IMG/VR virus record: IMGVR_UViG_2695420889_000011
Coordinates: 1-11,785 of that record
Reading direction: 5' to 3' (one strand)
Length of the DNA stretch: 11,785 bases
Origin: a virus
Taxonomy: Duplodnaviria; Heunggongvirae; Uroviricota; Caudoviricetes
The notes beneath the pieces are model-generated. The model worked only from the letters and a program-made list of their open reading frames with translations. It was not told where the DNA came from and did not search any database. Of this stretch, positions 1,871 to 4,426 are shown one piece after another. A program made the translations under genes and the position numbers. Positions within the stretch are counted from its first letter, which is position 1; every line of letters begins with the position of its first letter.

Positions 1871-4426
1871 ATGAGCAATAATTTGCAGGACATCCTCGCT
1901 GCCGCATCGGGGTATCAGTCCGTGACTTCAGAGCCAGCGCTCAATCTTAAAAGACCTAAAACGCTTGATGATTATCCTGTGATACCACCTGCATCAAAAA
2001 AAGTATCTGTTATTTCAAGTGACCTGACACTCCATATCGGTTTTGATACCGAATATGTTTTCAATCCTGAAACACAACAGAATGATATTCTGTCATATCA
2101 GAGTTATGTTGTCTTACCCGATAATACAGGTATATCGAACATTATCTATCCACCTGACTCACAGAAAAAATCCCGGCTGTCTTTTAAGAACTTTCTCTGT
2201 CAAACGATTACACCGCTTCTTGAAACGGGTGTGATTACAAAATGGCCCGGTATTATTAATATATATGCGCATTTCATTCGTGCGGATATCACCTCCTTTG
2301 CCAATTTCTGGTCAGACTACAAAATTCTTCTGAAAGGAATACGCGGTACTGTCAGCAGCTTCAAAAATCGTTACGGTATCGATTTTGATGAACAGCAGGA
2401 ACGTCGCGTAAAGACTGAACAGATAATGTTTGACAAACGAACTTCCCCTCCGCGTTGCAGTAACGTAGCTTTCATCGATACACTGCTTATCACTCCCGGG
2501 GGTATGGGTCTGGCTGAATGTGGTGAATTACTGGGTCTTCCCAAACTGACCATTCCTGCACCTTATTCCATAACCAATATGCGTGAATATCTTCTGGGCG
2601 ACAGAGCAGGGTTTGAAGCCTATGCTCTGCGGGATGCCGAGATTGCGGTTCGTTATGCTTTACAGGTTCGCAATTTTTGCGCCCGGGAGCTGATGATTGA
2701 TCGTGTCCCCGCCACCATCGGGGCGATGGCAGTTTCACGGTTCACCAAAACACTTAAAGAAAACAATATGTCTCCTGAAGTCTGCCTTGGGACACACATT
2801 AAAACCCGTGAACTCTGGCTCACGGAGAAACAGGCATTCCGGACGATTAAAAACCCCGCCAGTGTTCCTTCAAGAGAGCTGTTTGAAACGTTCCCGATCA
2901 ACTGTTACCACGGCGGACGCAATGAGTGTTTTATGATGGGGGTTACACCGTCTGATCACTGGTATGACTACGATCTGGCTGGAGCGTATACCACCGGGCT
3001 ATTAGATATCCTCATACCCGATTACGGAAACATCCGCCTCAGTAAAAATCCGGACGATTACTGTGGGCATGTAATGGGATTTGCGTTTGTCACATTTCAG
3101 TTCCCGGAATCAGTTCCCTATCCCAGCCTGCCGGTTCGGACCGATCAATATGGGTTATTCTTTCCATTAAGTGGCGAATCATGGGCAACGGCACCTGAAA
3201 TCGAACTTGCTCTGTCGCTCGGGGCAGAGATGACGATCCATAATGGGATCATCGTCCCCTGGATCTGTGACACCTCCCCACATAACAGCGAATCAACATC
3301 GGTGTTTCTTCCCTTTGTTCAACAGGTCCGTGAGAACCGTAATCGCCATATTAAAGGTTCTCTGGAGGAGAAATTCTGGAAAGAAATTGGCAACTCGCTT
3401 TATGGCAAACTTGCTCAGGGCCTTCGCGCCAAAACCGCCTTTGATACTGCCCGTGGATTAAACAGATCCCTCCCACCATCATCGGTTACTCAGCCATTCT
3501 TTGCTGCGCATGTGACGGGATTTATCCGCGCCGTTGTCGGGGAACTCATGAATGCTTTGCCTTCTGATTCATCGGTTGTCAGCGTCACAACCGATGGCTT
3601 TTTGACAAATTGCCCACTTAACAAGATAAACATGAGCGGTCCACTGTCTTCCCGCTTCCAGTCGCTGTGCGATATTGTTGATCCGGGTTCATCAATGTTG
3701 ACATGTAAGCATGAGGTCAGCCAGCTTATCGCCATGAAAACCCGGGGGCAGTTAACCTATAGAGCTATTCAGGGAAAACCTGTTGTTCATGCCAGGGCTG
3801 GCGTCAAACCTCCTGCCGATATTCCACGCAGTGACTATAACGACTATATGGTAGATCTTTACCTTAATCGTTTACCCGGTCAGACGTTATCCCGAAGTAC
3901 GTTGATATCAACGCGTGAGATGTGGCTGTCGGAAAGCGATCTGGTATCCCGGGAACAGGATATCCGTCTTAATCTGGAATTCGATTTCAAACGCCAGCCC
4001 GTACAGCCCGCCATGAATGAAGGGCATTTACTGATGTCTTCCCGCCCATGGGATAATATGGAAGAGGCTCTGCAGCAACGCTCTCTTTTCGACGACTGGC
4101 GGCAAACGCATACACTGAAGACCCTGGCTGACTGGGATGACTGGTGTGATTTTCTCTATTGCCGGACGGTGTTTTCTGATATGAAACTAAAAGTCGGAAG
4201 CAAACGTAGTGATGATATTTTAGTCAGACTATTTCTCCGGGCGCTGACTCAGTGCCAATGGGGGCTTATGCTGAAAGATAAAAAAAGTTATTCCTGTAAA
4301 GAGGTTGCTGAATGGCTGACGTCAGAAGGCTATTCAGTAACATGTCAAAAAGCACCTGCTGGATCTCCCGGGCCCGAAGGTCGCAGTAACGTATCTTCCC
4401 CAGACGAGGTTCAATGTATTGCGTGA
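1871..4426 (+). CDS. Family B DNA polymerase with 3'-5' exonuclease domain, piPolB-like (primer-independent PolB of pipolin-type elements)
   Basis: 851-aa ORF with SD GGAG 7 nt upstream. Ordered motifs: Exo I HIGFDTEY (D59, E61), Exo III-like YALRD (251-255), motif A-like DYDLAGAYTT (366-375), motif B KEIGNSLYGK (504-513, matching Kx3NSxYG), motif C-like VTTDGF (572-577), KTRG (623-626). The PolB call is strong; the piPolB subgroup assignment is from genomic context (recombinases, tRNA-derived att repeat) and memory. Confidence 0.8.
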   Translation: MSNNLQDILAAASGYQSVTSEPALNLKRPKTLDDYPVIPPASKKVSVISSDLTLHIGFDTEYVFNPETQQNDILSYQSYVVLPDNTGISNIIYPPDSQKKSRLSFKNFLCQTITPLLETGVITKWPGIINIYAHFIRADITSFANFWSDYKILLKGIRGTVSSFKNRYGIDFDEQQERRVKTEQIMFDKRTSPPRCSNVAFIDTLLITPGGMGLAECGELLGLPKLTIPAPYSITNMREYLLGDRAGFEAYALRDAEIAVRYALQVRNFCARELMIDRVPATIGAMAVSRFTKTLKENNMSPEVCLGTHIKTRELWLTEKQAFRTIKNPASVPSRELFETFPINCYHGGRNECFMMGVTPSDHWYDYDLAGAYTTGLLDILIPDYGNIRLSKNPDDYCGHVMGFAFVTFQFPESVPYPSLPVRTDQYGLFFPLSGESWATAPEIELALSLGAEMTIHNGIIVPWICDTSPHNSESTSVFLPFVQQVRENRNRHIKGSLEEKFWKEIGNSLYGKLAQGLRAKTAFDTARGLNRSLPPSSVTQPFFAAHVTGFIRAVVGELMNALPSDSSVVSVTTDGFLTNCPLNKINMSGPLSSRFQSLCDIVDPGSSMLTCKHEVSQLIAMKTRGQLTYRAIQGKPVVHARAGVKPPADIPRSDYNDYMVDLYLNRLPGQTLSRSTLISTREMWLSESDLVSREQDIRLNLEFDFKRQPVQPAMNEGHLLMSSRPWDNMEEALQQRSLFDDWRQTHTLKTLADWDDWCDFLYCRTVFSDMKLKVGSKRSDDILVRLFLRALTQCQWGLMLKDKKSYSCKEVAEWLTSEGYSVTCQKAPAGSPGPEGRSNVSSPDEVQCIA

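What the first reader, a model, noticed from the sequence alone, without database searches (positions are those of the whole stretch)
1871..4426. Chromosomal family-B DNA polymerase with the piPolB motif set (pipolin-type self-replicating element)
The 851-aa protein carries, in the correct order, an exonuclease Exo I DxE (FDTEY), Exo III YxxxD (YALRD), polymerase motif A-like (DYDLAGAYTT), a textbook motif B (KEIGNSLYGK, Kx3NSxYG), motif C-like (TTDG) and KTRG. A PolB embedded between tyrosine recombinase genes and a tRNA-derived att repeat, with no recognisable terminal-protein gene, fits primer-independent PolBs (piPolB) of pipolins, a recently recognised and still poorly characterised class of integrative elements. 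The element here appears eroded (IS hit, integrase remnants), so it may be a decaying or domesticated copy.
Basis: partly seen in the sequence, partly recalled or inferred. Interest (0 to 1): 0.75.

Follow-up and report, generated by a model that had tools for sequence, protein, structure and literature searches.

The report
Truncated E. coli pipolin DNA polymerase

Summary
The window is 100% identical to E. coli O145 strain FWSEC0002, which the 2020 E. coli pipolin survey already lists as a pipolin carrier.

The element is about 19 kb. It is bounded by 137-nt direct repeats that include 55 nt of tRNA-Leu, and it carries a type I restriction-modification cargo.

Three corrections apply:
- The native protein is 866 aa. 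A 5.8-kb deletion at window 4341/4342 replaced its conserved, folded last 42 residues with 27 unrelated residues. The same deletion removed the catalytic half of the element's main integrase.
- The left recombinase is cut by an IS3 element, and the excisionase gene has lost its start.
- The intact integrase at 6039-7040 belongs to a neighbouring P2-like prophage.

A 2024 paper describes exactly this truncated, prophage-cointegrated variant. Verdict: already known, low interest.

The parts
1..250 (+). Right end of an IS3-family insertion sequence (C-terminal part of the transposase gene, 1-207). It interrupts the left recombinase gene.
   Evidence: Thousands of E. coli IS3 copies match 1-~250. 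RefSeq annotates an IS3 transposase ending at window 207. Homology to the intact pipolin starts at about 247.
248..985 (+). Remnant of the pipolin's IntP2/XerC-like tyrosine recombinase. About 246 C-terminal codons of 376 remain; the N-terminal ~130 codons were lost to the IS.
   Evidence: Pfam Phage_integrase 3e-22 and NCBIfam XerC/XerD-like hits. Aligned with the intact 376-aa gene of strain MLI104K2.
1008..1193 (+). Remnant of the excisionase-like HTH gene (66 aa when intact). A 143-bp deletion removed its start codon, first 5 codons and upstream region; a TGA now precedes the remaining frame.
   Evidence: DNA alignment with MLI104K2. RefSeq annotates no CDS here in FWSEC0002, whereas intact pipolins carry WP_000281555.1.
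1183..1821 (+). 212-aa orphan gene that always lies just upstream of piPolB. Its function is unknown.
   Evidence: Syntenic in all intact relatives inspected. No Pfam, NCBIfam, PHROG or PADLOC hit. The exact sequence occurs on at least 1000 contigs.
1871..4342 (+). Native part of the piPolB gene, codons 1-824. It holds the exonuclease and polymerase domains with all catalytic motifs, plus most of a piPolB-specific C-terminal helical domain.
4343..4426 (+). Foreign 27-codon tail plus stop (CQKAPAGSPGPEGRSNVSSPDEVQCIA*), read from the antisense strand of the integrase remnant. It replaces the native 42 C-terminal residues.
   Evidence: Protein alignment with the 866-aa forms and the DNA junction alignment. 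AlphaFold pLDDT is below 50 for 831-851.
4341..4342 (.). Junction of a 5,805-bp deletion relative to intact pipolins. The deletion removed the piPolB 3' end, six genes (including a gene RefSeq calls an HTH regulator, which by position would be the WYL-domain core gene of the 2024 paper, plus DUF726 and DUF2787 genes) and the catalytic part of the IntSXT-type integrase.
   Evidence: BLAST break points, the junction alignment and the gene map of the intact relative L004. The published description is in PMC11551731, section 16.
4342..4814 (-). N-terminal 158 codons (arm-type DNA-binding domain) of the pipolin's IntSXT-type site-specific integrase, which is 399 aa when intact.
   Evidence: Pfam Arm-DNA-bind_3 7.7e-15. 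RefSeq marks a pseudogene 'missing C-terminus'. The intact gene is seen in MLI104K2 and FORC_031.
4895..5635 (+). 246-aa uracil-DNA-glycosylase-like gene at the right end of the pipolin.
   Evidence: UniRef names it 'Uracil-DNA glycosylase-like domain-containing protein'. The 2020 survey reports a type-4 UDG as frequent in E. coli pipolins. Pfam, NCBIfam and PDB sequence searches found nothing here.
5801..5937 (.). Right att direct repeat of the pipolin. It contains the 3' 55 nt of tRNA-Leu (5878-5932, the gene's sense on the minus strand) plus the sequence downstream of the tRNA.
   Evidence: A 137-nt repeat, 97% identical, lies 18,944 bp to the left, outside the window. There are three exact copies of the 55-mer in the region, the third inside the intact tRNA-Leu gene beyond the prophage. 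ARAGORN finds no whole tRNA in the window.
5938..11785 (.). Not part of the pipolin. This is the left end of a P2-like prophage integrated in tandem at the same tRNA-Leu site, with its own intact integrase at 6039-7040 (minus strand).
   Evidence: RefSeq annotates P2-type replication, capsid and tail genes running on to the intact tRNA-Leu. Pfam Int_N plus Phage_integrase hits.

Best explanation
The ORF is the piPolB gene of an E. coli pipolin integrated at the tRNA-Leu gene between yecA and pgsA.

**What the enzyme does.** piPolB is a phi29-like family-B replicase with 3'-5' proofreading. In the characterised E. coli enzyme it also synthesises its own DNA primers de novo, displaces strands and bypasses abasic sites. 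That was shown biochemically for an enzyme with the same residue numbering; it is inferred for this copy.

**How intact pipolins are thought to work.** The IntSXT-type integrase, possibly helped by the IntP2-type recombinase and excisionase, is proposed to excise the island between its att repeats. piPolB is proposed to replicate the circle without an external primase. This is the authors' proposal and has not been shown in vivo.

**This copy.** It belongs to the published 'truncated pipolin' lineage:
- One 5.8-kb deletion fused piPolB codon 824 to the antisense of the integrase gene.
- An IS3 cut the second recombinase.
- The excisionase gene lost its start.
- A P2-like prophage sits in tandem at the same site.

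The island is therefore most likely immobile, a fixed chromosomal relic that still carries defence cargo (type I RM, DUF262). Its piPolB keeps every catalytic residue but lacks a conserved, folded C-terminal segment. Its activity is uncertain and probably impaired.
For: **Identity of the locus.** The window is 100% identical to FWSEC0002, which is listed as a pipolin carrier in the 2020 survey.

**Protein.**
- Residues 1-824 differ from the canonical 866-aa piPolB at 5 positions.
- D59/E61, D368, K613/H614 and K623/R625 match the published mutant numbering.
- The family comprises 2073 50%-identity clusters, and the motifs are invariant across it.
- Pfam DNA_pol_B_2 matches 44 of 50 diverse members, best E-value 3.9e-16.
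- hhalign to phi29 DNAP places Exo II, Exo III and motifs A, B and C on the phi29 catalytic residues.

**Element limits and erosion.**

**Lost C-terminus.**
- All 80 representatives extend at least 30 residues past T824, and P860 is conserved in 73 of 79.
- In the canonical model residues 821-866 have block pLDDT 78-95 with two helices. The window's tail scores below 50.

**Literature.** The published description of the variant is in PMC11551731, section 16. No excision was detected in E. coli pipolin carriers (PMC7385651).
Against: - The window protein alone does not reach Pfam's threshold for DNA_pol_B_2 (17.7 bits against a cut-off of 25.8). It matches no NCBIfam model and no PDB sequence. 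Family assignment therefore rests on near-identity to known piPolBs, family-level profile hits and predicted structure.
- I could not retrieve the exact sequence of the biochemically characterised enzyme. Identity to it is inferred from matching residue numbers and from the reported >98.8% identity among the E. coli piPolBs of that survey.
- Loss of mobility and impaired activity are inferences. The 851-codon ORF is still open in 22 of the 28 complete genomes that carry the junction, 18 at 851 codons and 4 as an 854-codon in-frame variant. That could mean it is still useful.
Confidence: 0.95

Rival explanations
1. The gene is a dead relic. Loss of the conserved C-terminal 42 residues makes the protein misfold or lose DNA binding, so the ORF is a pseudogene awaiting further decay. 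This is compatible with the main explanation and differs only on residual activity.
For: - The lost segment is conserved family-wide and confidently folded.
- Neighbouring helices lose model confidence in the truncated form.
- Six of the 28 junction-carrying complete genomes have further hits in the gene: 4 IS insertions and 2 one- or two-nucleotide indels.
- Substitutions specific to the window lineage are 4 nonsynonymous to 1 synonymous, against dN/dS of 0.14-0.24 among canonical genes.
Against: - Five substitutions are too few to test (roughly p = 0.09 by my own binomial estimate).
- Some of the 1-2-nt indels may be long-read assembly errors.
- All catalytic residues, and the whole part of the model that aligns with phi29 DNA polymerase, are intact.
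- The exact 851-aa sequence is seen on 331 contigs.
Confidence: 0.45
2. The polymerase has been domesticated. With the island immobilised, the truncated piPolB is retained because it helps the host, for example by re-priming or translesion synthesis after DNA damage.
For: - Over-expression of wild-type, but not D368A, piPolB improved E. coli survival after mitomycin C and UV (PMC5695915).
- The ORF remains open in most carriers.
- The truncated lineage occurs in several unrelated strain backgrounds besides O145.
Against: - There is no evidence of expression here.
- There is no sign of purifying selection on the lineage.
- Repeated independent disruptions occur.
- The survival effect was obtained with the full-length enzyme under over-expression.
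Confidence: 0.1
3. It is a protein-primed PolB (pPolB) of a phage, linear plasmid or casposon-like element, or a paralogue of the host Pol II, rather than a piPolB.
For: The only Pfam hit is DNA_pol_B_2, the organellar/viral protein-primed type. The closest solved structure is the protein-primed phi29 polymerase.
Against: - TTD replaces DTD and KH-X8-KTRG replaces KxY, the published piPolB signatures.
- No terminal-protein gene and no inverted terminal repeats are present. The element is bounded by direct repeats at a tRNA gene and carries tyrosine recombinases.
Confidence: 0.02

Closest known systems
piPolB of the E. coli 3-373-03_S1_C2 pipolin (Redrejo-Rodriguez et al. 2017, PMC5695915)
   Same: - Same species and same integration site.
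- Same residue numbers for Exo I (D59/E61), motif A (D368), KH (K613/H614) and KTRG (K623/R625).
- Canonical E. coli piPolBs are 99.4% identical to the window protein over residues 1-824.
   Different: - The window protein is 851 aa rather than 866: the last 42 native residues are replaced by 27 unrelated ones.
- There are four lineage-specific substitutions: D107N, A141T, L406F and R410Q.
- The activity of this truncated form has not been tested.
'Truncated' Enterobacterales pipolins with a deletion between IntSXT and piPolB, an IS near IntP2 and a cointegrated prophage (Mateo-Caceres et al. 2024, PMC11551731, section 16, Fig. 3B pipolin 2)
   Same: All four published features are present: the deletion between piPolB and the IntSXT-type integrase, an IS3 at the IntP2-type recombinase, truncated recombinases, and a P2-like prophage in tandem at the same tRNA-Leu.
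   Different: Nothing material differs. This report adds the exact junction (window 4341/4342, 5,805 bp). It also shows that the deletion reaches into piPolB and removes a conserved folded C-terminal piece, and that the excisionase gene has lost its 5' end.
phi29 DNA polymerase (protein-primed family-B polymerase; PDB 1XHX, 2PYJ)
   Different: - Only 11-13% identity.
- piPolB has TTD instead of DTD and KTRG instead of KxY.
- It has an extra C-terminal domain of about 170 residues.
- It has no terminal protein partner.
- The characterised enzyme primes DNA synthesis de novo rather than from a protein hydroxyl.

Membership tests
piPolB (primer-independent family-B DNA polymerase) | Family-B polymerase fold of the phi29 (protein-primed) type, with exonuclease and polymerase domains | tested here: met
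piPolB (primer-independent family-B DNA polymerase) | Conserved Exo I, II and III and polymerase motifs A and B | tested here: met
   D59/E61, D139, Y251/D255, D366/D368/Y373 and K504/N508/Y511/G512 are invariant or at least 90% conserved in 80 diverse members. From Exo II onward they align to the phi29 catalytic residues.
piPolB (primer-independent family-B DNA polymerase) | PolC motif with the first aspartate replaced (TTD instead of DTD) | tested here: met
   T573-T574-D575. T574 and D575 are invariant. They align to phi29 D456-T-D458. The feature is as described in PMC5695915.
piPolB (primer-independent family-B DNA polymerase) | Extended KH-X8-KTRG motif in place of KxY | tested here: met
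   K613-H614, eight residues, then K623-T-R625-G626. K613 is invariant and R625 at least 90% conserved. The published numbering is identical.
piPolB (primer-independent family-B DNA polymerase) | Complete native polypeptide, including the conserved C-terminal segment | tested here: not met
   Residues 825-866 of the canonical protein are replaced by 27 unrelated residues. The lost segment is present in 80 of 80 representatives and confidently folded. This makes the copy a truncated member; it does not change its family.
piPolB (primer-independent family-B DNA polymerase) | De novo (primer-independent) DNA synthesis, proofreading and translesion synthesis | not testable with these tools
   These activities were shown only for the full-length E. 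coli enzyme.
Pipolin (integrative element of Gammaproteobacteria) | piPolB gene lying between att-like direct repeats, one overlapping a tRNA gene | tested here: met
   137-nt repeats lie 18,944 bp apart around piPolB. Each contains the 55-nt 3' part of tRNA-Leu. The site lies between yecA and pgsA, as published.
Pipolin (integrative element of Gammaproteobacteria) | Core genes: IntSXT-type integrase, IntP2-type recombinase with excisionase, DUF2787, WYL-domain protein | tested here: inconclusive
   Only remnants of IntSXT, IntP2 and the excisionase are present. The DUF2787 gene, and the gene occupying the published WYL position, lie inside the 5.8-kb deletion. Their former presence is inferred from intact relatives. 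The WYL domain itself was not tested here.
Pipolin (integrative element of Gammaproteobacteria) | Variable cargo module of defence genes | tested here: met
   The left part of the island, outside the window, carries a type I RM system (hsdR, hsdS and an hsdM pseudogene), a DUF262 protein, an M48 peptidase and a cold-shock-domain protein. These rest on RefSeq annotations only.
Protein-primed PolB elements (phi29-like phages, linear plasmids, casposons, polintons) | Terminal-protein gene and/or terminal inverted repeats; canonical DTD and KxY motifs | tested here: not met
   No terminal-protein gene is annotated in the island. The boundaries are direct rather than inverted repeats. TTD and KTRG replace DTD and KxY.

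The most novel reading that the evidence does not exclude
The naturally truncated 851-aa piPolB, fixed in the STEC O145:H28 lineage and several other E. coli backgrounds, may still be expressed and catalytically active. It would then be retained by the host as a damage-tolerance or re-priming polymerase after the island lost its mobility. A corollary is that the conserved HTH-like C-terminal module absent from phi29 polymerase (helices 809-818, 825-830 and 846-858 of the canonical model) serves element-specific functions, such as origin or partner recognition, rather than catalysis. I found no description of this module in the 2017 paper.
Probability: 0.1. Interest if true: 0.45.

Novelty: already known. 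Interest (0 to 1): 0.15.

Why it matters
piPolBs matter in general. They are the third major group of family-B polymerases, they can start DNA synthesis without a primase, and they are used for whole-genome amplification. Pipolins are also a recognised class of defence islands.

This copy adds little. The strain is in the published pipolin catalogue and its truncated architecture has been described.

The small new points are:
- The exact deletion junction.
- The deletion clips a conserved, folded C-terminal segment of the polymerase itself.
- The excisionase gene is also disabled.

Together these give a natural truncation mutant that could show what the piPolB-specific C-terminal domain is for.

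Tried and rejected
**Searches that found nothing useful**
- phmmer of the protein against PDB sequences gave only a spurious hit at E 0.43.
- An 80-sequence piPolB HMM against PDB sequences gave nothing at E<=1. Sequence profiles alone therefore cannot link piPolB to solved polymerases; structure comparison and hhalign were needed.
- NCBIfam and PADLOC returned nothing for piPolB, the 212-aa orphan or the UDG-like protein.
- PHROGs gave two weak 'DNA polymerase' hits (9e-7 and 4e-5), which are supportive but not decisive.

**Calls that failed**
- The first Pfam scan of the alignment exceeded the size limit and was repeated with 50 sequences.

**Analyses that stayed inconclusive**
- dN/dS on the truncated lineage rests on only 5 lineage-specific substitutions.

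**Readings considered and rejected**
- N198-D203 (NVAFID) as Exo II. The phi29 alignment places Exo II at H134-D139 and puts D203 on phi29's YDSLK segment instead; from memory, that segment is the (S/T)Lx2h exonuclease motif.
- The integrase at 6039-7040 as a pipolin gene. It belongs to the P2-like prophage.
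Full report
**Where the window comes from.** The whole 11,785-bp window is 100% identical to the chromosome of E. coli O145:NM strain FWSEC0002 (NZ_CP031919.1, 2211736-2223520, minus strand). That strain, under accession CP031919.1, is listed among the pipolin-harbouring GenBank genomes in the supplement of the 2020 survey of E. coli pipolins (PMC7385651).

**The observation.**
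- An 851-codon ORF lies at exactly 1871-4426 (+). RefSeq calls it a DNA-directed DNA polymerase.
- The listed motifs are all there, in order: FDTEY 58-62, YALRD 251-255, DYDLAGAYTT 366-375, KEIGNSLYGK 504-513, TTDG 573-576 and KTRG 623-626.
- They are not chance matches. An exhaustive HMMER search of 1.84 billion cluster representatives found 2073 relatives (566 at E<=1e-30).
- In alignments with 79 full-length representatives only 28-48% identical to the query, D368, Y373, K504, G512, T574, D575 and K613 are invariant. D59, E61, D139, Y251, D255, D366, N508, Y511, K513, T573, G576 and R625 are at least 90% conserved.

**Is it a family-B polymerase?**
- On its own the protein misses Pfam's threshold for DNA_pol_B_2 (E 0.0018, 17.7 bits against 25.8). 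It matches no NCBIfam model and no PDB sequence, even with a family profile.
- At family level the link is clear. Of 50 diverse members, 44 match DNA_pol_B_2, with a best E-value of 3.9e-16.
- A profile-to-sequence comparison with phi29 DNA polymerase (E 4.7e-4, 383 columns) aligns the catalytic positions. D139 falls on Exo II D66, Y251/D255 on Exo III, D368 on motif A D249, KEIGNSLYGK on KLMLNSLYGK, and T573-T-D575 on D456-T-D458.
- An AlphaFold model built with the 80-sequence alignment is confident (pLDDT 88.8, pTM 0.87).
- Foldseek's nine best PDB hits are all phi29 DNA polymerase (E 1.5e-15, TM 0.66 on the target), followed by archaeal and eukaryotic family-B enzymes.

**Is it a piPolB?**
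- The 2017 paper defines the group by a PolC motif whose first aspartate is replaced and by KH-X8-KTRG in place of KxY. It reports mutants D59A/E61A, D368A, K613A, H614A, K623A and R625A of the E. coli enzyme (PMC5695915).
- The window protein has exactly those residues at exactly those numbers.
- Its 90%-identity cluster holds 1387 sequences, most of the listed members being 866 aa. Over residues 1-824 it differs from the cluster representative at five positions.
- Membership is therefore secure. The biochemical properties (proofreading, strand displacement, translesion synthesis, de novo DNA priming) are inferred from that near-identical enzyme.

**The protein is not full length.**
- The alignment with the 866-aa forms is perfect in register to T824 and then breaks. 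The native 42-residue end (VTDVKNAVRAKIPQMKFSSVTPRMKSLMDIIARKYPTFCLPV) is replaced by 27 unrelated residues.
- At the DNA level, other E. coli genomes match the polymerase only up to window 4341, and match the sequence from 4341 rightwards as the 5' part of a site-specific integrase on the opposite strand. The junction alignment shows a clean fusion.
- In the intact relative MLI104K2, the two break points are 5,805 bp apart. The gap holds six genes, including an annotated HTH regulator, a DUF726 gene and a DUF2787 gene, plus the catalytic part of the 399-aa integrase.
- The lost segment of the polymerase matters. All 80 representatives continue at least 30 residues beyond the T824 column with full occupancy. 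N830, A831, R833 and T845 are shared by most of them, and P860 is present in 73 of 79.
- In a model of the canonical protein (pLDDT 90.4), residues 821-866 are confidently folded, with helices 825-830 and 846-858 and block pLDDT 78-95. In the window protein the corresponding blocks fall to 72, 45, 38 and 33.

**The element.**
- A 137-nt direct repeat (97% identity) lies at window 5801-5937 and again 18,944 bp to the left, next to yecA. Both copies contain the exact 55-nt 3' part of tRNA-Leu.
- The third copy of the 55-mer is inside the intact tRNA-Leu gene, about 37 kb further on, beyond a P2-like prophage.
- The pipolin is thus about 19 kb. Its left module holds a type I RM system with an hsdM pseudogene, DUF262, an M48 peptidase and IS3 copies.
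- Its right module is what the window shows: an IntP2/XerC-like recombinase, an excisionase-like HTH gene, a 212-aa orphan, piPolB, the IntSXT-type integrase, a UDG-like gene and att.
- The window from 5938 onward is prophage, including the intact integrase at 6039-7040.

**Erosion.** Four lesions are visible:
1. The IS3 end at 1-~250 removes about 130 N-terminal codons of the left recombinase.
2. A 143-bp deletion removes the start and upstream region of the excisionase-like gene.
3. The 5.8-kb deletion is as described above.
4. The tandem prophage separates the island from the tRNA gene.

Both recombinases are damaged, so excision is unlikely; this is an inference. The 2024 paper describes this same configuration: a deletion between IntSXT and piPolB, an IS near IntP2, truncated recombinases, a monophyletic piPolB clade and frequent prophage cointegration (PMC11551731, section 16). 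The 2020 paper notes truncated piPolBs, particularly in phylogroup D strains, a group that includes the O145:H28 strains. It also found no detectable excision and hypothesised inactivation by prophage insertion.

**Distribution and selection.**
- 296 of 5,426 complete E. coli genomes carry the piPolB region.
- 28 carry piPolB joined to this junction. Most are O145, but other backgrounds occur too.
- Among those 28, four have IS insertions in the gene, two have 1-2-nt indels and four have an in-frame +9 nt variant.
- Pairwise dN/dS among canonical genes is 0.14-0.24. The window lineage has four private nonsynonymous changes and one synonymous change. That suggests relaxed constraint, but the counts are far too small to be conclusive.

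**Verdict.**
- The gene is the piPolB of a decayed pipolin.
- Both the element in this strain and this truncated architecture are already in the literature.
- The only additions here are the base-level junction, the loss of a conserved C-terminal piece of the polymerase, and the disabled excisionase gene.

Noticed in passing
window 5938-11785 (continues about 31 kb beyond the window; L002 24938-49785 and L005 8446-21001): A P2-like prophage is integrated in tandem with the pipolin at the same tRNA-Leu att core. It carries an integrase, a DUF2511 protein, an HTH repressor-like gene, DUF4761/DUF4754 genes, a MarR-like gene, a replication endonuclease, ParM and P2-type capsid and tail genes. One small gene at window 9378-9664 is annotated as frameshifted.
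   Followed up: partly
window 4895-5635 (+): The 246-aa right-end pipolin gene is called UDG-like by UniRef and 'type-4 UDG' in the 2020 paper. Here it matched no Pfam, NCBIfam, PADLOC or PDB sequence. Its only hit was PHROG 29550, of unknown function, at 2e-178. The glycosylase assignment was not verified here.
   Followed up: partly
window 1183-1821 (+): The 212-aa orphan directly upstream of piPolB is syntenic in every intact relative inspected. It also occurs in Klebsiella and on an Enterobacter plasmid. It has no hit in any profile library, so it may be a functional partner of piPolB.
   Followed up: partly
canonical piPolB residues ~700-866 (window 3968-4342 for the retained part): All piPolBs share a C-terminal domain of about 170 residues that extends beyond the part aligning with phi29 polymerase. 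It is helical at its end, with an HTH-like pair (809-818, 825-830) and a final helix (846-858). The deletion cuts between the two HTH-like helices. Its fold and function were not identified.
   Followed up: partly
L003 (E. coli FORC_031, NZ_CP013190.1) 1-10300: This strain has the right-hand pipolin genes (HTH regulator, DUF726, DUF2787, intact IntSXT-type integrase, UDG-like) and type I RM cargo. An IS1 sits where piPolB would be, and no piPolB lies within the 9 kb fetched. The same P2-like prophage is in tandem. It looks like one of the piPolB-less pipolin-like islands mentioned in the 2024 paper.
   Followed up: no
L001 (E. coli O145 RM9872) 18523-19736 and 5830-7043: Sister O145 strains carry extra IS3 copies inside the same pipolin. 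One lies between the 212-aa gene and piPolB, and one splits the M48 peptidase gene. This shows continuing IS-driven decay of the island within the lineage.
   Followed up: no
window 1843-1866: A short inverted repeat (AACTCC...GGAGTT) lies just upstream of the piPolB start codon, and its 3' arm contains the GGAG ribosome-binding site. It could occlude translation initiation. It was read by eye and not folded or tested.
   Followed up: no
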